Assembly: GCF_964194155.1 (NCBI RefSeq)
Contig: NC_135880.1
Location: 114,452,001 to 114,516,000, forward strand
Origin: Cetorhinus maximus
Taxonomy: Eukaryota
Length of the DNA stretch: 64,000 nt
Direction of reading: 5' to 3'
The position numbers were made by a program, and so were the translations under genes. Below, piece after piece: positions 8,030 to 51,937 of the stretch. The number at the start of each line of letters is the position of its first letter. The stretch's first letter is position 1. The notes under the pieces were generated by a model. The model was not told where the DNA came from. It saw only the letters and a program-made list of their open reading frames with translations, and did no database searches.

Positions 8030-11000
8030 TTTAATCAATCAGCATATCATGGAAATGTATAGGCCAGCATTTATTGCCCATCCCTAATTGCCCTTGAGAA
8101 GGTGGTGGTGAACTACCTCCTTGAACTGCTGCGGTGTATGTGGTGTAGGCACACACAGAGTGCTGTTCAGAAGGGAGTTCCAGGATTTTGACCCAATGAA
8201 AGTGAGGAACGGCAATATAGTTGCACGTCAGGATGGTGTTTGGTTTGGAGGGGAAATTGCAGGTGGTGGTGTTTCTATGCACTTGCTGCCCTTGCCCTTC
8301 TCGGTGGTAGAGGTTGCAGGTTTGGAAGGTGCTGTCGAAGGAGCCTTGGTGAGTTGCTGCAGTGCATCTTGTAGATGGTACACACTGCTGCCACTTTGTG
8401 TCAGTGGTGGAGGGTGGATGTTGAAGGTGGTGGATGGGGTGCCAATCAAGCAGGTTGCTTTGTCCTGGATAGTGTTAAGCATCTTGAGTGTTGTTGGAGC
8501 TACACTCACCCAGACAAAGGGAGAGTATTCCCTGACACTCTTGGCTTCTGCCTTGTGGATGGTGGATAGGCTTTGGGGAGTCAGGAGGTGAATTCCTTGT
8601 CGGTGAATTCCCAGCCTTTGACCTTCTCTTGTAGCCACAGTATTTATATGGTTGGTCCGGTTCAGTTTCTGGTCAATGGTAACACACAGGGTGTTGATAG
8701 TGGGGGATTTAGCGATGGTAATGCTATTGAATGTCAAGGAAGGATCGTTAGCTTCTCTATTGTTGGAGATGTTCATTGCCTGGAACATGTGTGACACGAA
8801 TGTAACTTGTCACTTATCAGCCCAAGCCTGAATGTTGTCCAGGTTTTCTGCATATGGTCACTGAATGCTTCAGCATCTGAGGAGTTACGAATGGTGCTGA
8901 ACATTGTCCAATCATCAGTGAATATCCCCACTTTTGACCTTATGATGGAAGGAAGGTCATTGATGAAGCAGTTGAAGATGGTTGGGCTTGGACACTACCC
9001 TGAGGAACACCTGCAGTGAACTGGAACTGAGATGATTGACTTCCAAGAACCACAACTATCTTCCTTTGTGCTAGGTATGACTCCGACCAGCAGAGAGTTT
9101 TTCCCCAATTCCCACTGACCCCAGTTTTGCTAGAGCTCCTTGATGCCACACTTGGTCAAATGTTGCCTTGATGTCAAGGGCAGTCACTCTCACCTCACCT
9201 CTGAAGTTCAGCTCTTTTGTCCATGTTTGGACCAAGGCTGTAATGAGATCAGGAGTTGAGTGGCCCTGGCAGAACCCAAACTGAGTGTCAGTGAAGAGGT
9301 TATTTCTGAATAAGTACCGTTTGGTAGCACTGTTGATGTCTCCTTCCATCACTTTGCCCATGATTGAGAGTAGGCTGATGAGGCAGCAATTGCCCAGGTT
9401 GGATTTGTCCTGCTTTTTGTGGACTAGACATACCTGGGCAGTGTTCCAATTGTTGGGTAGATGCCAGTGCTGTAGCTGTACTGGAACAGCTTGGCTAGGG
9501 GTACGGCAAGTTCTGGAACACAAGCCTTCAGTACTATTGCTGGAATGTTGTCAGGGCCCATAGCCTTTGCACTATCCAGTGACTTCAGCATTTTCTTGAT
9601 ATCACGATATCTTCAAATGGAGTGAATTGAATTGGTTGATGACTGGCATCTGGGGATGGATCATCCATTCGATACTTCTGGCTGAAGATTGTAGCAAATG
9701 CTTCAGCCTTATCTTTTGCACTGATGTGCTGGGCTCCCCCATCATTGAGGATGGGGATATTTTTGGAGCCTCCTCCTCCAGTGAGTTGTCTAATTGTCCA
9801 CCACCATTCACGATGGGATGTGGCAGAACTGCAGAGCTTAGATCTGATCTGTTGGTTGTGGATCGCTTAGCTCTGTCTGTTGCATGCTGCTTAGGTTGTT
9901 TGGCACGCAAGTAGTCCTGTGTTGTAGCTACACCAGATTGATGCACCTCATTTTTAGGTATGTCTGCTGCTGCTCCTGCCATGCCCTCCTGCACACTTTG
10001 TTGAACCAGGGCTGATCCCCTGGCTTGATGGTAATGGTAGAGTGGGGGATATGCTGGGCCATGAGGTTACAGATTGTAGTTGAATATAATTTTGCTGCTG
10101 CTGGCCCAAAGTGCCTCATGGATGTCCAGTTTTGAGTTGCTAGGTCCATTCGAAATCTATCCCACTTAGAACTGTGGTAATGCTACACAACACAATGGAG
10201 GGTATCCTCAGTGTGAAGTCGGGACTTTGTCTCCACAAAGGCTGTGTGGTGGTCACTCCTACCAATGCTGTCATGGACAGATGCATCTGTGACAGCTAGA
10301 TTGATAAGGACAAGGCCAAGTAGGTTTTTCCCTCTTGTTGGCTCCCTTACCACCTGTCAGACACATTCTAGCAGTTATGTCAAAAACAAAAACAAAAATA
10401 CCTGGAAAAACTCAGCAGGTCTGACAGCATCTGCGGAGAGGAATACAGTTAACGTTTCGAGTCCGTATGACTCTTCAACAGAATTAAGGAAAAATAGAAA
10501 CGAGGTGAAATATAAGCTGGTTTAAGGGGGGGTGGGACAGGTAGAGCTGGATAGAGGGCCAGTGATAGGTGGAGATTGCCAAAAGATGTCATAGACAAAA
10601 GGACAAAAAGGTGTTGACGGTAGTGATATTAGCTAAGAAATGTGCTAATGGCGACATTAAGGGCAGAAAGCAGGATGAGCAAGGTACAGATAGCCCTGGT
10701 GGGGTGGGGGGAAGGGGGAGTTATGTCCTTTGGGATGACCAGCTTGGTCAATAGTGGTACTACCGAGCCACTCCCTGTGATGGACATTGAAGCCCCCACC
10801 CAGAGTTCTGTGCCCTTGCCACCCTCAGTACTTCTTCTGGGGACAGTATGTGGTAACCAGCAGGAGGTTTCCTTGCCCATAATTGATCTGATGCTATGGG
10901 ACTCCCAGGGCTACTCCCTCCCAACTATATACCACTATGCCACCACCGCTGTCCTATCGGTGGGACAGGACAATACCAGGGATGGTGATAGTGGCGTCTG

Positions 11001-15135: not shown

Positions 15136-15779
15136 TTTTTTCTCTTGCATATTCAGTTCAATATGCAAGGAGACATACAGGTTGTTTTGGAGAGTTAGAA
15201 ATTAGAGGGGAGTATAGATAGCTATATATGTTCAGGATAATTTGGCAGCGAAGGAACTTGGAAAAAATTGGAAATAGGAATATGGAACTGCTCTGGGGCT
15301 GAAGAATATTTGAGTCAGGATGTCACTAATCAAATCCAGTCAGCAGATTGGTTGATTATGCGGGTGAAGATACAGAAGCTCACAGATATTGCACCCAGCT
15401 GAAACCTGCTTATGCCTTTCTAAATCCTATGTCTAGAAACAAGTCTATATATATGCCAGAGATGGGATCACAATGATATACAGTGCCAAAGAACTCTTAT
15501 GTTTGAGGGATTCTTCCTGTGAGTGGGTGCCTATACTTCTGCTACAGTGGCATTTATGTCTACTGGCACATTTCACTTACGCTGATGTTCTAAAGTCTGG
15601 GTCAATGAAGACAAGTGTATCATGCTCATCACAATGGCTCGATTGGAGACCTTCCTGAGATACTTCGTTCATGGGTTGATCAGTGCTGACAGGTTGTTGG
15701 CAAGGCATAGTGCTGGTAACTGTTTGGAATCCACCATAGTTGGTGGGTCAGGAGTGTCATATGGCAGTAGTTCAAAAAT

Positions 15780-17258
15780 GTGGTCAGGCATCTCTCTCCC
15801 CTTGTCCAGTCCCTTCCCACCTACATCCGTGATTCCTCTGACACCTTACGTCACATCAACAATTTCCAGTTCCCTGGCCCCAACCGCTTCCTCTTCACCA
15901 TGGATGTCCAATCCCTCTACACCTCCATCCCCCACCAGGATGGTCTGAGGGCCCTTAGCTTCTTCCTTGAACAGAGGCCCGAACAATCCCCATCCACCAC
16001 TACTTTCCTCCATCTGGCTGAACTTGTTCTCACACTGAACAATTTCTCCTTTAACTCCTCTCACTTCCTCCAAATAAAAGGTGTGGCTATGGGTACCCGC
16101 ATGGGCCCCAGCTATGCCTGTCTCTTTATGGGGTATGTGGAACATTCCTTGTTCCAGTCCTACTCCAGCCCCCTCCCACATCTCTTTCTCCGGTTCATCG
16201 ATGATTACTTCGGTGCTGCTTCATGCTCTCGTCGGGACCTGGAAAAATGTATTAATTTTGCTTCCAATCTCCACCCCTCCATCATTTTCACATGGTCCGT
16301 CTCTGACACTTCTCTTCCCTTCCTTGACCTCTCTGTCTCAATTTTTGATGATAGACTGTCCACCAATATCCATTACAAGCCTACTGACTCCCACAGCTAC
16401 CTCGACTACAGCTCCTCACACCTCGCTTCCTGTAAGGACTCCATCCCATTCTCTCAGTTCCTTCGCCTCCGTCGCATCTGTTCTGATGACGCTACCTTCA
16501 AAAACAGTTCCTCTGACATGTCCTCCTTTTTCCTTAACCGAGGTTTTCCAACCACGGTCGTTGACAGGGACCTCAACCGTGTCCGGCCCATCTCCCGCGC
16601 ATCCACCCTCACGCCTTCTCCTCCCTCCCAGAAACATGATAGGGTCCCCCTTGTCCTCACTTATCACCCCACCAGCCTCCGCATTCAAAGGATCATCCTC
16701 CGCCATTTCCACCAACTCCAGCATGATGCCACCACCAAACACATCTTCCCTTCACCCCCACCGGCGGCATTCCGTAGGGATCGTTCCCTCCGGGACACCC
16801 TGGTCCACTCCTCCATCACCCCCTACTCCTCAACCCCCACCTATGGCACCTCCCCATGCCCACGCAGAAGATGCAACACCTGCCCCTTTACTTCCTCTCT
16901 CCTCACCGTCCAAGGGCCCAAACACTCCTTTCAAGTGAAGCAGCATTTCACTTGCATTTCCCCTAACTTAGACTACTGCATTCGTTGCTCCCAATGCGGT
17001 CTCCTCTACATTGGAGAGACCAAACGCAAACTGGGCGACCGCTTTGCAGAACACCTGCGGTCTGTCCGCAAGAAAGACCCAAACCTCCCTGTCGCTTGCC
17101 ATTTTAACACTCCACCCTGCTCTCTTGCCCACATGTCTGTCCTTAGCTTGCTGCATTGTTCCAGTGAAGCCCAACACAAACTGGAGGAACAGCACCTCAT
17201 CTTCCGACTAGGCACTTTACAGCCTTCCGGGCTGATTATTGAATTCAACAAACTTTAG
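15780..17258 (+). CDS. Penelope-like RT / GIY-YIG endonuclease, uninterrupted 492-codon frame lacking the native N-terminus
   Basis: MDVQSLYTSIP, QIKGVAMGTRMGP, RFIDD, FLDL, HYKPTD, Cys linker CPRRRCNTC, and YCIRCSQCGLLYIGETKR..RFAEH. Confidence 0.9.
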   Translation: MVRHLSPLVQSLPTYIRDSSDTLRHINNFQFPGPNRFLFTMDVQSLYTSIPHQDGLRALSFFLEQRPEQSPSTTTFLHLAELVLTLNNFSFNSSHFLQIKGVAMGTRMGPSYACLFMGYVEHSLFQSYSSPLPHLFLRFIDDYFGAASCSRRDLEKCINFASNLHPSIIFTWSVSDTSLPFLDLSVSIFDDRLSTNIHYKPTDSHSYLDYSSSHLASCKDSIPFSQFLRLRRICSDDATFKNSSSDMSSFFLNRGFPTTVVDRDLNRVRPISRASTLTPSPPSQKHDRVPLVLTYHPTSLRIQRIILRHFHQLQHDATTKHIFPSPPPAAFRRDRSLRDTLVHSSITPYSSTPTYGTSPCPRRRCNTCPFTSSLLTVQGPKHSFQVKQHFTCISPNLDYCIRCSQCGLLYIGETKRKLGDRFAEHLRSVRKKDPNLPVACHFNTPPCSLAHMSVLSLLHCSSEAQHKLEEQHLIFRLGTLQPSGLIIEFNKL

Positions 17259-17780
17259 ATCTTAAACTCCCCCTCCCCCCATCCCCACCCCGTTTCCTCC
17301 CCCTCCCTTTTGTTTGTTTGTTTTTTTTTGTTTTCAATAATTTATATAGATTTTTCTTTTCCCACCTATTTCCATTATTTTTAAATCTACAACTAATACC
17401 TTGTCAATCTTTCCACCCCACCCCCACTAGAGCTGTACCTTGAGTGTCCTGCCATCCATTCTTAATTAGCACTTTTCTTAGATAATATCACCACCTTCAA
17501 CACCTTTTGTCTGTGACATCTTTTGATTATCTGCTCCTATCACTGCTTGCTTGTCCCTACAACCACCCCACCCTCAACTTCTCTCCCCCCGCCCTCCACC
17601 TTAAACCAGCTTATATTTCACCCCTCTCCTAACTATACTTCAGTTCTGTTGAAGGGTCGTGTGGACCCGAAACGTCGACTCTTTTCTTCTCCACCGATGC
17701 TGCCAGACCTGCTGAGTTTTTCCAGGTAATTCTGTTTTTGTTTTGGATTTCCAGCATCCGCAGTTGTTTTTTGTTTTTAT
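15790..17780 (+). mobile_element. Penelope-like retroelement (Neptune-like), 5'-truncated
   Basis: RT plus GIY-YIG ORF followed by a pyrimidine-rich 3' region and the terminal hammerhead-like motif. Confidence 0.93.
17642..17680 (+). ncRNA. Minimal hammerhead-ribozyme-like motif (variant core)
   Basis: agtt-CTGTTGA-a-GGGTC-gtgtg-GACCC-GAAA-CGTC-gact: stems I and II, palindromic ACGT in place of stem III. Penelope termini are known to carry minimal hammerheads. Confidence 0.6.
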
Positions 17781-25661: not shown

Positions 25662-26279
25662 GAGCTGAATATTCGGCTCAGCGAGCAGGGGCATGGCCCA
25701 CTCGCTGAGGTGTAAAATGACGCGGGGTGAGTTGGCTGTGTGCCTGCCGAACTGCCAAAGGCCTGTTAAGGCCATTAATGAACTAATTAAGCCTATTGAG
25801 AAAGCTGCCCATCCAACCTTAAGGTTGGTGGGCAGGCGAAGAGCCCAGACGGCCTTCGTATTTTTCATGGAACCTCATCCATGGGCGGGATGAGGTTTCG
25901 TGAATGATTTAAAATTTTCAGAAACATTTTTATTAAAATTAATGCACATGTCCCAGCTGACGGGACAGTTTCACATGAGGGGACATGTCATAAAAATTTT
26001 TACAACACTTTATTACACTGTTTAAATTTAAAACTAATCTCCCTGAGGTACCTCTGTGCCTCAGGGAGATTTCTGCGCTGTTTTGCGCATGTGCACTCCC
26101 AACACAAGGAACCCCCCCCCCCTGCCAGTGGGTGCACAGCGTTTTTGGGCGCATGTCACGCTTGGCGGGCCTTAATTTGCCAGCCCACGTAAAATGGCGG
26201 CATGGACCCGATTGGGGCGCTGTTCGGGTCCGTGCCTGCCCCCACACAACCCCCCACCGATTGGGGGAAAGTTCTACCC
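25662..26279. mobile_element. Harbinger-type MITE, multi-hairpin family
   Basis: Internal ccaaccttaaggttgg, cctcatcc/ggatgagg hairpin, terminus aaagttctaccc. Confidence 0.85.
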
Positions 26280-28298: not shown

Positions 28299-28427
28299 GG
28301 CCAGGATTTTCCGGCCCCATTGTGGATGGGACCCGCCGCGGGCGAGGCGGCGTCCCAGCCAGAAGTCCATTGCCTTGTGGTGGTACCGGAAGATTCTGGC
28401 GGCGGGCAGGTGTGGAAAATCCCGACC
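28299..28427. mobile_element. 129-bp Harbinger-type mini-MITE
   Basis: TIR ggccaggattttcc / ggaaaatcccgacc, TSD tat. Confidence 0.8.
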
Positions 28428-28528
28428 TATATGTGTATGTGAGAGACTTAATTGAATTAGAGACAGCTAGCCTGGGTGCTTTGATGCAAGAAGAGAAGCT
28501 AGGCTTGAAGTGTTAATTAGGTAAACAT

Positions 28529-29120
28529 GGGGGAGATTTTCTGCCTGTTGGGCAGGCCTGTGATTGGCTGCATGCGCCATTTTGCGTGGGCGGGCCAATT
28601 AAGGCCCACCCAGCGTGACGCGCACTCAGAAGCGCTACCTGTGCGGGTGGGGGGAGGAGGGAGAGTTGGGGCCTTTGCTCTTTCGCGCACGTGAGTGAAA
28701 GAGCACAGAAATCTTCCTGAGGCACGGAACTGCCTCCGGGAGATTAATTTCAAATGTGAATTTCAAATTAAGAAGCTGGAAAATCACTTACATGTCCCCT
28801 CATGTGATAGCGTCACATGAGCTGGGACATGTTTTTCAAATGTTCCAAAAATATTTATTATTGTTATAAACCCTTCATTCCACCTGTGGATGAGGTTTCA
28901 TGAAAAATGCGAGGGCTGCCTGGGCTCTTCGCCTGCCCACCAACCTTAAGGTTGGATGGGCAGCTATAACAGGCCTTTGACAGTTCGGCGGGTGCGCAGC
29001 CGGCTCCGGTGCGCGCCCGCCGAACGGAAGATCATAATGACATGCGGTGATGTCTGGACGCCTGACGTCACCGCGCATCATTTTATGTGTCGGTGTGCCT
29101 GCACACCGACACATAAATTG
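28529..29120. mobile_element. Harbinger-type MITE, multi-hairpin family (right end eroded)
   Basis: Family motifs as at 5644-6251. Confidence 0.85.
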
Positions 29121-29327
29121 AATTTGACTTGATCAGGGTATGATATTTCTTTGCCTGGATATGTGTCTTACTTTGCCTTAATGAAAGTATAACTAGGAGT
29201 CAAATCAAGTAGGAGATTTAGAAGTCATCATTGTAGTAATTTGTGGATCTATGTATGTATTTAAAATCATTTCTCTTATTAATAAATGTTTAATCTAGTT
29301 TTGAAAAAACCTATAAGACTTGGGGTA

Positions 29328-29719
29328 AAAGCAAAAAACTGTGGATGGTGGAAATCCAAAACAAAAATAAAAATACCTGGAAAAACTCAGCAGGTCTGGC
29401 AGCATCTGCGGAGAGGAATACAGTTAACGTTTCGAGTCCGTATGACTCTTCAACAGAACCGGTAACAGAGCCAGTACTGTAGAGTTGCTGGCCTCTGATT
29501 GGCTGAGAGCTCAGAGGCTGGACCTCCTGTTGCTGAGGGGCGGAAGTACCACCTCAACCCAACTAATGACCAATGGGCTGTTCAGTTCCTGCGGGGTAGG
29601 TGTTGCGCCTGTGGACGGACTCTTCTGTTGAAGAGTCATACGGACTCGAAACGTTAACTGTGTTCCCCTCCACAGATACTGCCGGACCTGCTGATTTTTT
29701 CCAGGTATTTTTATTTTTG
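29328..29719. mobile_element. Inverted pair of Penelope termini enclosing a captured 148-bp filler
   Basis: Arms 29362-29458 and 29623-29719 are reverse complements. Filler 29474-29621 matches 30338-30485. Confidence 0.9.
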
Positions 29720-29998
29720 TATAAGAATTAGGGGTATTGTTACTACTGAATTCAAGGCATGCATCTTGAAATTTATACAAATTGCAAGTAAGTTGTGGCA
29801 GATGTTTCAAATTTCCCTCTGGGATTTGAATAGCTCAGCATTTACCATCTGCTGTGTCATAACAGTTGTGCACAGAAAATGCCCACTTCGACAAGGTAAT
29901 GCTTGTACAGGTTAAGTTAGCATTTTCAAAACAGGGAAGAAAATTAGGGGAAATGTTATTCAAAATATCTTCTATTTTCTTTGAGTTACTAAAACAAG

Positions 29999-30540
29999 GG
30001 GCTGGATTTTACTCTCCCACCGGCGTATTTGAAGGTGGGGGGTGGGACTGCATTAAATCCAGCGTGTGCTGTGCCTGCTGCTTACCTGCCAGCTCCTGCC
30101 AGCGGTGAGATTTAAGCAGCAGTGGTAGAGGTCCATGCCAAGTGTCCAGTCTGGCCCTTCCAGATCCTCCTCCCACCCTCTGGCCTTTCTACCCTGGCCC
30201 CAGCCCTCTCGCCAGGACCAGCCACCTTCGCTCTGGCAAGACTCCCAACACTTACCTCAAATACCAGATTCAGCACTGCACGCCTTCCTTTCTGCCACGT
30301 GTAGTGCCAGCAGTGGCCACCACTCCTGGTGTAGGTGGTACTGTAGAGCTGCTGGCCTCTGATTGGCTGAGAGCTCAGAGGTTGGACCTCCTGTTGCTGA
30401 GGGGCGGAAGTACCGCCTCAACTCAACTAATGGCCAATGGGCTGTTCAGTTCCTGCGGAGTAGTTGTTGGGTCTGTGGACGGACTTTTTAACTAGGAGGT
30501 GGGGTAGTTGGCGGTGCAATGGCCCCATTAAATACAACCC
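29999..30540. mobile_element. Harbinger-type MITE, second family
   Basis: Termini gggctggatttta / taaatacaaccc, TSD aag. Confidence 0.7.
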
Positions 30541-31296
30541 AAGGTTTTCTGAACTGAACTTACAATGCTACTTTTTATTTTGTGCTGCTCACTAACATGC
30601 TGTCAGTCATAATTCAACTGGAATCATCTGTCTACAAGAGGGTCTATTTTAAAATCAAAGTACAGGTTAGATAAGCTAGAATTCTTCTGTGTAATTTGTA
30701 GCTGTGATGAAGTGGTTCTGGGTTTTACAATAAAAAAACCTCACAATGAAATAACTTAATTTCAAAACCTCTCTGAAGAGCACTTGATAGCCTTTTGTGG
30801 AATATTTAACTAGTAAATCTGTGTTAATAATATCCCTTCACAATACAATATTTTGGAAATTCGGGCAAAATGTGATGAGAAAGAAAACAAAAAACTCACT
30901 GTGGGACAATGTAGCATTAAAAGCTCCAGAGAAAGTGGATACCTGGAAAATTAACACTAACTGCAACCAATAATCTGTTCTTAGGATCAGCTATCTTATA
31001 TAGCTGGGCTCAACCCACAAGAATTCTATCCTTAACGTTTGAGTTCTTTAAAATCGAGGATTTCTGTCACAACTAATCCAGGTTAAGAGTGAGTGTGTTG
31101 TTAAGTATTTTGATGCATTAATATTTTGCATGAAACAATATGATTCTTAATGCCCCAGGTTGTACTTAGACAGGTTGACACTGCAGCTTTGTCTAGGTGA
31201 AGCAATAACTTTCCATTGTAGCCTACTCATTGTACAATTTGTGTTAGCTATATAAACTAATAAAAGTCACTGTGTTTGATGAGATCCAGACTTGTT

Positions 31297-49779: not shown

Positions 49780-51937
49780 TGCACTGCAGCTGATACCTTT
49801 GCTGCATCATGTTCCGCCAACTCCTCCTCTGAGTTGTCTGAAGAAGCTCTGTGTTTTGTGCCTTGTTCCTCCTTCATGTCCAAACTTCGCAGTTGTGCAA
49901 CAGTCTGCAGAGCGCAGCACATCATGACCATTCTGAAGATTCTGGCTGGTGCATATTGAACAATGCCTCAAGGTCTGTCCAGATACCTGAAGTGCATCTT
50001 CAGCACACGAATGGCTTGGTAAATGACATATCTGGCTTTTATTGCATCATTCCGGGACCTCATTGGTTGGGTTCCTCATGTGTGGCAGCCACATTTTAAT
50101 TAGGTATCCCTTGGGGAGAATTTTCTCCCCGTTGGGGGCTGGGCAGGAGCGGACGGGGAGCGACTGTGAGCTGCCATGTTATGTGGGCGGGCCAATTAAG
50201 GCCCACCTAGCGTGACGAGCACCCGGAAGCGCTGAGCGCTCCCTGTGCGGGTGGGGGGAGTAGGCTGAGTCGGGGCCTGCGCTCTTTTGCGCATGCTCGC
50301 CTCAGGGAGATTAGTTTGATTTTAAAAAATTTAAATAAGAAAGAACAAATTTTTTAAGACATATCCCCCTCATGTGACAGCGTCACATTAGCTGCAACAT
50401 GTCTATGAATTTTATTAAAAGTTTTTACTGAAATTTAAAAACCTTCATGAAACCTCATCCCGCCCAATGGTTGAGGTTTCATGATAAATGCGAAGACCGT
50501 CTGGGCTCTTCACCTGTCCGCCAACCTTAAGGTTGGACGGGCAGCTCAGTTAAGTATTTTAATTGATATTTAAATGGCCTTAACAGGCCTTTGACAGTTT
50601 GGCGGGTGCGCAGCTAACTCTGTTGCGTGCCTGCCGAACTGAAGATCTGAATGACGCACGGTGATGTCGGGACGCATGCCCGACACCACCGCGTGTCATT
50701 TTACGCGTTGGTGAGCGGGGCCCGACCCCGCACGCCGACCCGAAGATTCTGGCCCTTGTCTTCAAGCTGTACAAAGAGATCAAGGAGGATGGACTGCCAT
50801 AGGACGAAACATCATGCCAGCTGTCCAGGAATCTTGCGCACACCTGCATAAGCATCTTTTTGTGGTTGCAGACCAGCTTCACGTTGATGGAGTGGAAACC
50901 CTTGTGGCTGATGGGGGAGCTGGAGATGCCTTAATTGCCACAAGCATGCAGTAGATGACACCCTGCACTTGTGAAAAGTCAGCTAGAATTGCAATCTCAG
51001 CGACTACTCATTCTGACTGGCAACATTAGTGGCAAAGGTGACATAATTGCCTGTCCTGGCAAAGAAACCATTATTCATCTGACTTATGCAGTTGAGAGCT
51101 GCTGACTGTAAGATCCTGCAAATGTCTTTGGCAAAGCCCTGGAAGGAGCCAGAGGAAAGGAAATTATTTGGGGGGACGACTTTGACATCCACTTTTAAAG
51201 TGTTGTCACCAGGCCCACTTCGAGCAGAACTTGTTCCAACAAGCTGCAAATGTCTGCTACCATCTGATACGTGACCCTGAGCCTCCTAAGACACTAGTGT
51301 TCTGACATGTCAAGGGAGCATATCTGCTGCTTGTACACGCTATGTTGCGGGCATGGCCTCTTATGAGTGGCACCTCTCTGCTCACGCCTCTTTCACATGG
51401 AGCAGCAGATTTGTGAAGAGTAGGCTGTTGCTGCTCCTGCTGGTGCTGTTCCTGTTGGTGCTCTTCCTGCTGATGCTACTGGTCATCCTAGTCCTCATCT
51501 GAGGTCCAAAGTCAAACAGAATAACTGGCATGTGTGCTGATCTGATAGATCAGTGCTCCAAAGTGAAGGTCAGATGTACAAATTTCCAAAGCTGTCAAAG
51601 TCTATCCGAAGTTGTAAAAATCACCATTAAAGTTATAAAAATAACTTCTCTTTTACGCAAACAGGCAAGAAATCAGTTGTGAGGTTTTAGTACTTGTTAT
51701 TGCATTTCCCTATCATGTCTTCAGCCCACTCAATTGCCAATATGCTCTTGCTTTACTTTCACTGGTGAGTTCCAGGCTGCCCTTCTCTCGAGAGGCTTGC
51801 TTGATTGCATCCTAACTTGCCGCAATTAAATGTGGGGATTGTAGAGTTGGACCCGTTTCCCCAATATGCCAGCTCGTTTTTAATCAACTGCCCCCGCATC
51901 CGCTCCCAAACCCACCTGCAAGTTAAAACATCCCCCC
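49780..51937 (-). pseudogene. Third, older Harbinger: transposase remnant and one terminus
   Basis: FLSSGSFQG..DICRI.QSA, KGFHSINVKLVCNH..VCARF, EDKGY (split by MITE), QYAPARIFRMVMMCCALQ. Terminus ttaaaacatccccc at 51937. Confidence 0.8.
50114..50755. mobile_element. Harbinger-type MITE, multi-hairpin family
   Basis: Termini gggagaatttt / aagattctggccc, TSD ttg. Confidence 0.92.

What the first reader, a model, noticed from the sequence alone, without database searches (positions are those of the whole stretch)
29312..29736. Inverted ribozyme-bearing Penelope termini that captured a copy of neighbouring DNA
Seen: two ~97-bp Penelope termini (29362-29458 and 29623-29719) form an inverted repeat with about 6 mismatches. 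Each arm ends just inside its hammerhead-like motif. They enclose a 148-bp filler (29474-29621) that is a direct copy, with 9 mismatches by hand count, of 30338-30485 inside an unrelated MITE ~0.9 kb away. The unit is flanked by an imperfect ~16-bp duplication (tataagacttggggta / tataagaattaggggta). Known: Penelope-like elements form inverted pseudo-LTRs and carry hammerheads. Inference: arm and filler divergences are similar (~6%), suggesting one event in which the RT or repair machinery switched template onto local DNA or RNA. The product is a compact hairpin cassette with one ribozyme motif on each strand. If such cassettes recur, they would be a PLE-driven route for local sequence capture.
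Basis: partly seen in the sequence, partly recalled or inferred. Interest (0 to 1): 0.7.

Follow-up and report, generated by a model that had tools for sequence, protein, structure and literature searches.

The report
Penelope insertion that copied nearby DNA
This is a small, mirror-image insertion of a very common jumping gene with a 148-base copy of DNA from about 600 bases away in its middle, likely patched in while the insertion was being sealed; such nearby copies recur at other insertions in this genome and resemble events known for human L1 elements.

Summary
29326-29719 is a head-to-head pair of Penelope-like (Neptune-type) 3' ends with a one-sided ~36-nt tail and a 14-bp target duplication. 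This layout is a common form for the family: 11,603 such cassettes were counted, control 0. The 148-bp filler is 94% identical to the donor 617 bp away; the next best long genomic matches are 75-80%. A contig from a related organism carries the filler-to-arm junction, so an assembly artefact is unlikely. Capture recurs: 10 of 17 fillers of 30 nt or more map within 700 bp, on either side and strand, and two more map to the same contig. The rate is about 0.5% of cassettes. Junctions mostly show 1-4 nt microhomology or short linkers, which fits synthesis-dependent end joining of two cDNA ends; the polymerase (host or element RT) is not resolved. Arm ends peak sharply at the hammerhead's first bases, likely the RNA 5' end. 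The hammerhead motifs are probably inert passengers. Templated insertions are known for L1; a local origin for Penelope fillers was not found in my literature searches. This scan noted the same thing on other DNA of this genome (e1-8633408).

The parts
29312..29325 (+). Left copy of 14-bp target-site duplication
   Evidence: 2 mismatches vs right copy; 8 paralogous copies of the host repeat in held loci run through this site once, without the insertion
29326..29361 (-). One-sided PLE 'tail' (~36 nt) at the 3' end of the left arm
   Evidence: Absent from the right arm, shared with related termini; signature described in PMC8557442 and PMC11167929
29362..29459 (-). Left arm: 5'-truncated PLE 3' terminus, ending at the family truncation peak
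   Evidence: 1 difference from the majority base of 86 subfamily arms in 97 positions
29421..29459 (-). Minimal hammerhead-like motif, CUGUUGA core variant
   Evidence: Read from sequence; folds as helix I + helix II when isolated; no Rfam hit
29452..29475 (+). Imperfect 12-nt tandem duplication spanning the arm-filler junction (accounts for linker 29460-29473)
   Evidence: 10 of 12 identical
29474..29621 (+). Filler: direct copy of 30338-30485
   Evidence: 139 of 148 identical; best non-self genome match; 2-nt TT overlap with the right arm
29623..29719 (+). Right arm: tail-less PLE 3' terminus starting two bases before the hammerhead core
   Evidence: 5 differences from the subfamily majority in 97
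29623..29660 (+). Hammerhead-like motif lacking most of the 5' strand of helix I
   Evidence: Only UU remains upstream of the core; does not take the hammerhead fold when isolated
29720..29733 (+). Right copy of the target-site duplication
30338..30485 (+). Donor of the filler, inside a dispersed repeat of about 29999-30545
   Evidence: Most of 28 family copies align with the donor beyond the 148 bp, but with the cassette essentially only over the filler; single-copy orthologous contigs in organisms B and C
29160..29868 (.). Older host repeat interrupted by the cassette
   Evidence: Both flanks hit adjacent positions of the same paralog in 8 held loci
15771..17779 (+). Related longer PLE copy in the window: RT + C-terminal GIY-YIG frame followed by a related terminus; anchors the family identity
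   Evidence: RVT_1 E=4e-6 and GIY-YIG E=0.003, both below Pfam cut-offs; CX4CxxC linker and CxxC between the GIY- and YIG-like motifs; terminus 85% identical to the left arm

Best explanation
The unit is one head-to-head insertion of a Neptune-type Penelope-like retrotransposon with a copy of DNA from 617 bp away at its central junction, likely added by synthesis-dependent end joining while two cDNA ends were being joined. Steps: (1) the element's endonuclease makes a 14-nt staggered cut (duplication shown; enzyme inferred). (2) Both 3' ends prime reverse transcription, one at the tail site and one about 36 nt further in (layout shown; two-site, two-strand priming shown in vitro for a Poseidon element, PMC11167929, inferred here). 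(3) Both cDNAs run off the 5' end of the RNA at the first bases of the hammerhead (peak shown; RNA 5' end inferred). (4) The two cDNA ends have the same polarity and cannot anneal; usually they are joined near-blunt or through short palindromes, but in about 0.5% of events one end pairs by a few bases with nearby chromosomal DNA and is extended (recurrence shown; chemistry inferred). (5) The extended end is joined to the other arm; a 12-nt slip at the left junction arose then or later. The product is a dead insertion. Polymerase odds, my judgement: host Pol theta-like 55%, element RT on DNA 35%, other 10%.
For: 11,603 tail-anchored inverted cassettes with gaps up to 500, controls 0; duplications in 197 of 237 cassettes vs 4 of 236 shuffled pairs, 143 of 197 being 13-15 bp. 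Filler 94% to the adjacent copy vs 75-80% for the next long matches among 40 scored of 93 candidates. 10 of 17 fillers >=30 nt map within 700 bp, up- and downstream, direct and inverted; for 9 tested, 0 of 246-247 control loci reach 80% of the own score. Two distal donors are both on the same contig, at 126 kb and 12.8 Mb. Junctions of 10 mapped fillers: 12 of 20 ends overlap by 1-7 nt, 7 have a linker, 1 is blunt. Arm-arm and filler-donor divergence agree: 6/98 and 9/148 here; summed over 11 cassettes 32/1076 and 38/1411. Either arm can be the longer one. Organism C has a single-copy 143-nt contig on 29504-29646 with 5 differences, crossing 24 nt into the right arm; it has the donor base at 4 sites and keeps the filler base at 29551.
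Against: 7 of 17 fillers are not local; one has no donor in the genome search. L219 is a PLE ORF piece ending in an A-run, and six fillers are PLE sequence from beyond the tail, which looks like RT jumping onto RNA, so an RNA template is not excluded here. L220's filler is equally identical to an unlinked repeat copy. Fillers were enriched by targeted patterns; the unbiased rate rests on 2 of 93 mid-size and 0 of 90 small cassettes, all from part of one contig. The organism C contig has 24 letters on the arm side, under the tool's 31-letter bridging rule. Four cassettes have the same chimeric junction on both arms (L104, L144, L222, L229), which needs an extra fold-back step or a chimeric RNA. 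No test of the enzyme was possible.
Confidence: 0.8

Rival explanations
1. The element's RT ran off its RNA and jumped onto a nascent local transcript, so the filler is reverse-transcribed RNA, not copied DNA.
For: Some fillers look RNA-derived: L219 (ORF piece + A-run) and post-tail PLE sequence in L072, L074, L099, L104, L105, L229. L142's arm+filler matches an older PLE copy plus its upstream flank 126 kb away, which read-through RNA could explain.
Against: Donors lie on both sides and both strands within 700 bp; none of the 10 local fillers ends in an A-run; linkers and microhomology fit SD-MMEJ (PMC2943611 abstract). In L142 the left arm agrees with its own right arm at 2 sites where the distal copy differs, weakly favouring a DNA switch.
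Confidence: 0.12
2. The filler entered later: a break in the hairpin-prone palindrome was repaired from nearby DNA after the insertion.
For: Near-perfect inverted repeats are break-prone (general knowledge); the 12-nt duplication shows at least one step after the junction formed.
Against: Both arms end exactly at the family peak with no loss, unlike a processed break; filler-donor divergence is not lower than arm-arm divergence; organism C already has the filler.
Confidence: 0.06
3. Arm+filler is a mobile composite family, or the unit is an assembly artefact.
For: One other filler-bearing cassette occurs 12 times on contig C291.
Against: This filler has one match above 90% in the genome search; the C291 cassette examined sits in a tandem satellite; arms and copies differ by 6%; an independent organism holds the junction.
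Confidence: 0.02

Closest known systems
Insertion units of endonuclease-bearing Penelope-like elements, Neptune type (PMC8557442 passages; PMC3846280 passages; PMC11167929 main text)
   Same: Inverted 5'-truncated copy, one-sided 30-40 bp tail, target duplication, hammerhead in the pLTR; RT + C-terminal GIY-YIG with CX2-5CxxC linker in a related window copy.
   Different: Both arms are ~100-bp stubs ending at one sharp site; the junction holds a traced copy of flanking DNA.
Templated insertions during human L1 integration (bioRxiv 10.1101/2024.08.27.596794 and PMC11702581, passages)
   Same: Non-element genomic template under 250 bp copied into the insertion; rare (22 cases; the figure legend gives 3,598 insertions; 0.6% is my division); SDSA-like switch proposed.
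   Different: There somatic or experimental, at poly(A)-primed L1 insertions, with templates stated as within 15 bp; here germline, shared between species, between two cDNA ends, donors 56-693 bp away or further on the same contig.
Host DNA captured between solo pLTRs in Adineta vaga (PMC3846280 passages)
   Same: Unrelated sequence between pLTRs, bounded by target duplications.
   Different: Read there as mobilisation in trans; the passages seen do not trace the captured DNA to the insertion's neighbourhood.
[quoted passage not shown]
   Same: Templated inserts, short microhomology and linkers at the joint.
   Different: Ends here are cDNA flaps; dependence on Pol theta untested.
Dual minimal hammerheads on opposite strands 100-700 bp apart (PMC4209133, parts 1-2 of 4)
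   Same: Same inverted arrangement, extra base before helix II, palindromic ACGU in place of helix III.
   Different: Core reads CUGUUGA, and one copy has lost most of helix I.

Membership tests
EN+ Penelope-like element | RT plus C-terminal GIY-YIG endonuclease upstream of the terminus | tested here: met
   Met in the related copy 15771-17779, both Pfam hits below cut-off; the cassette itself has no ORF, and its own subfamily's ORF was not retrieved
EN+ Penelope-like element | Inverted 5'-truncated copy with one-sided 30-40 bp tail | tested here: met
EN+ Penelope-like element | Target-site duplication | tested here: met
   14 bp, 2 mismatches; family mode 14; empty paralogs
Neptune/Nematis clade | CX2-5CxxC linker before the endonuclease, CxxC between GIY and YIG | tested here: met
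   CPRRRCNTC and CIRCSQC in P0001 (definition)
Neptune clade | RT phylogeny places it in Neptune rather than Nematis | not tested
   No tree was built
Minimal type I hammerhead | Core boxes, helix II with extra 5' base, palindromic loop 3 | tested here: inconclusive
   Layout present, but core position 6 is U (canonical A and numbering recalled); no Rfam hit
Minimal type I hammerhead | Intact helix I in this cassette | tested here: not met
   Right arm keeps 2 bp; left arm keeps a 5-bp helix partly formed by linker bases
Minimal type I hammerhead | Self-cleavage (as a dimer) | not testable with these tools
   Needs an in vitro assay
Templated insertion at a retrotransposon junction | Insert is a copy of a nearby genomic segment, donor intact | tested here: met
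Templated insertion at a retrotransposon junction | Same age as the insertion | tested here: met
   6/98 vs 9/148; pooled 3.0% vs 2.7%; wide sampling error for one locus
Pol theta-mediated end joining | Genetic dependence on Pol theta | not testable with these tools
   Only junction signatures were seen
Non-autonomous composite family (retrozyme/MITE-like) | Dispersed copies of the same arm+filler unit | tested here: not met
   One copy only

The most novel reading that the evidence does not exclude
Penelope integration leaves two same-polarity cDNA flaps that end at the RNA's 5' end, and the element's own telomerase-like RT closes the gap by invading neighbouring duplex DNA, snapping back and annealing to the other flap. 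The thousands of mini-cassettes would then be a fossil record of PLE second-strand joining, and filler donors a map of germline chromatin proximity at the time of insertion.
Probability: 0.25. Interest if true: 0.7.

Novelty: new variant of a known kind. Interest (0 to 1): 0.4.

Why it matters
How Penelope-like elements form their inverted junctions is described as undefined (PMC8557442). This genome offers over 11,000 minimal products with a sharp arm end, a 14-bp duplication and traceable fillers, which makes the joining step testable by counting and in the published in vitro system. The cassette itself is probably a neutral relic, and capture is rare and short, so it is a minor source of new sequence.

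Tried and rejected
Rfam search found no ribozyme. No RNA holder was listed, which says nothing on expression. No filler contig was seen in organism B runs or in run X2 of the window's own organism; those runs were read to 65-74%, so the hole proves nothing. Two k-of-n coverage scripts and one alignment script gave wrong arm limits and were replaced (replaced). The offset for short arms was 3 too large and was corrected. The automated duplication scan missed this cassette because its arm limit left out the tail; read by hand. Rejected: arms stopping at the hammerhead cut site (no clear peak; 3 of 348 arms at -33); one arm always copied from the other by fold-back (either arm can be longer); a cap-templated extra C (seen in a few junctions, not quantified); polarising the 9 filler differences with family copies (too diverged). 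L142's filler was not within 15 kb before the genome search placed it. Loci dropped as duplicates before counts: L042, L059, L073, L133; six irregular loci were left out of the duplication count. Supplements of the cited papers were not read; the L1 preprint's supplementary figure 4d bears on the stated 15-bp distance.

Full report
Observation. The two arms differ at 6 of 97 positions and the filler differs from 30338-30485 at 9 of 148, both without gaps. The left arm continues outward through a ~36-nt tail (29326-29361) that the right arm lacks. With the tail assigned, the target duplication is 14 bp with 2 substitutions. The cassette interrupts an older repeat: in 8 held loci both flanks hit adjacent positions of one paralog, which shows the target once. 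The 14-nt linker left of the filler is an imperfect 12-nt tandem duplication across the junction; on the right the filler overlaps the arm by TT.

Family. A related terminus at 17643-17779 (85% identical) follows a 495-aa frame with RVT_1 and C-terminal GIY-YIG matches, both under Pfam's cut-offs, and with a CX4CxxC linker and CxxC inside the nuclease. PMC8557442 (passages) gives these as Neptune/Nematis features and describes the inverted truncated copy and one-sided tail as typical. The inverted pair is very common here: 593 pairs with this subfamily's hammerhead anchor within 300 bp, and 8,898 + 2,705 tail-anchored cassettes with gaps of 0-200 and 201-500, all with control 0. Duplications were found at 197 of 237 cassettes against 4 of 236 shuffled pairs; 143 of the 197 are 13-15 bp.

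Is the filler local? The genome search returned the adjacent copy at 94% and other family members at 75-80% over long matches, up to 86% over short ones; 40 of 93 candidates were scored. Most of 28 family copies align with the donor beyond the 148 bp but with the cassette essentially only over the filler, so the donor is the native copy. The arm+filler unit has no second copy.

Is it real and how old? Organism C (run X13) has a single-copy 143-nt contig lying wholly on 29504-29646 with 5 differences and no gap; it crosses 24 nt into the right arm, under the tool's 31-letter rule for bridging. It carries the donor base at 29559, 29569, 29600 and 29606 and keeps the filler base at 29551. The flank differs by 47/1151 from organism B and 26/621 from C, less than the 6% inside the cassette, so the insertion likely predates these splits. 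Over 11 cassettes arm-arm (32/1076) and filler-donor (38/1411) divergence agree.

Does capture recur? I examined 17 fillers of 30 nt or more that are not copies of the arms or of post-tail PLE sequence. Ten map within 700 bp of the cassette edge: this one (617), L120 (118), L137 (adjacent, complex), L143 (383), L144 (693), L216 (85), L220 (534), L221 (56), L223 (667), L228 (347, in a satellite). Donors lie on both sides; L137, L221 and half of L144 are inverted. For the 9 tested, 0 of 246-247 control loci reach 80% of the own score within 1 kb, though L220 also matches an unlinked repeat copy fully. L142 maps 126 kb away and L217 12.8 Mb away, each on its own contig; the L142 donor includes an older PLE arm with the same end point. 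Five are not local: L215 (no donor found), L218 and L224 (repeats), L225 (47 bp, not searched genome-wide), L219 (PLE ORF piece + A-run). Most were found by patterns that enrich for fillers. Unbiased: 2 local and 1 unmapped in 93 mid-size cassettes, 0 in 90 small ones (90 of the first 100 listed), about 0.5% weighted.

Why do both arms end at the hammerhead? Among 168 + 180 arms, weighted by class, 23% end within 0-4 nt past the CAGAA landmark: 0.046 per nt, against 0.002 at +10 to +24 and 0.011 at -15 to -6, with no clear peak at the predicted cut site. Of 153 cassettes with spacers up to 8 nt, 50 were listed; by eye 20 have the same junction and none of 100 rows runs past the second base into the upstream consensus. 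The sense sequence there, TTAGTTC or TCAGTTC, fits an initiator pattern (recalled), and pLTR promoters are reported (PMC2377424 and PMC3846280, passages). With internal RT initiation on uncleaved RNA and extension of both target strands, as shown in vitro for a Poseidon element (PMC11167929, parts 1-2 of 4), run-off at the RNA 5' end is the simplest reading (my odds 65%; no RNA data).

Mechanism. Two cDNAs of equal polarity must be joined. At the 20 ends of 10 mapped fillers, 12 overlap by 1-7 nt, 7 have linkers and 1 is blunt; some linkers are snap-back copies of the arm. This fits SD-MMEJ (PMC2943611, abstract) or an RT that can use DNA, as noted for L1 ORF2p (PMC11702581, passages). Same-contig distal donors favour a DNA template. 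RNA-like fillers (L219, post-tail pieces) show that RT jumps probably also occur, so RNA templating stays open.

Ribozyme. The motif has the minimal-hammerhead layout of PMC4209133 (parts 1-2 of 4), which reports no cleavage by a single motif and already notes inverted pairs 100-700 bp apart. Here the core reads CUGUUGA, the right copy keeps 2 bp of helix I, each transcript would carry one motif, and the predicted fold is an arm-arm hairpin of -225 kcal/mol. Function is unlikely, untested.

Novelty. L1 templated insertions (10.1101/2024.08.27.596794, passages) and host DNA between solo pLTRs (PMC3846280, passages) are known. Searches listed no paper tracing PLE junction fillers to local DNA; most subscription journals are not covered. 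PMC9977147 and 10.64898/2026.07.22.740005 (passages) added nothing on this. Earlier notes of this scan, read after my tests, reach the same view on other DNA. Verdict: real, recurrent, a new variant of a known kind; interest 0.4.

Noticed in passing
L144 (G000:C4:150723441), L104, L222, L229: Both arms carry the same chimeric junction, giving palindromes that extend into the filler. Suggests one extended cDNA folded back and then annealed to the other cDNA, or a chimeric RNA.
   Followed up: partly
L142 and L236 (G000:C1:54092479 and 53966695): An arm plus 168 bp of unique flank duplicates an older PLE copy 126 kb away: homology-led switch or 5' read-through transduction.
   Followed up: partly
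L219:4921-5086: Filler is a PLE RT-coding fragment ending in an A-run, as if RT jumped onto a prematurely polyadenylated element RNA.
   Followed up: partly
L072, L074, L099, L104, L105, L229: Fillers made of PLE sequence from beyond the tail, implying the template RNA extends well 3' of the priming sites.
   Followed up: partly
G000:C291:245791-334378 (L228): One filler-bearing cassette occurs 12 times on this contig; the copy examined sits in a satellite and its filler is identical to the nearest unit.
   Followed up: partly
G000:C3:12674448-12674746 (L230): A 38-bp hammerhead-containing unit repeated about seven times in tandem inside one cassette; would place several motifs on one strand.
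   Followed up: no
L043, L068, L082, L089, L100, L078, L130, L131: Second cluster of arm ends at +25 to +39, often joined through palindromic overlaps AGCT, TATA, ATAT or AATT.
   Followed up: partly
window 29474-29621 and 30338-30485: Filler and donor contain CCAAT-type and GGGGCGGAAGT motifs that resemble promoter elements (labels recalled).
   Followed up: no
window 15771-17258: 495-aa open PLE frame with YFG after an FIDD motif in place of the usual YxDD; upstream part not open.
   Followed up: no
window 10380-10649: Unpaired copy of the same terminus subfamily, 97% identical to the left arm, running about 170 bp further.
   Followed up: no
window 28300-29120, 25729-26212, 50096-50754 and others: Abundant dispersed repeat family with internal palindromes next to the cassette.
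   Followed up: no
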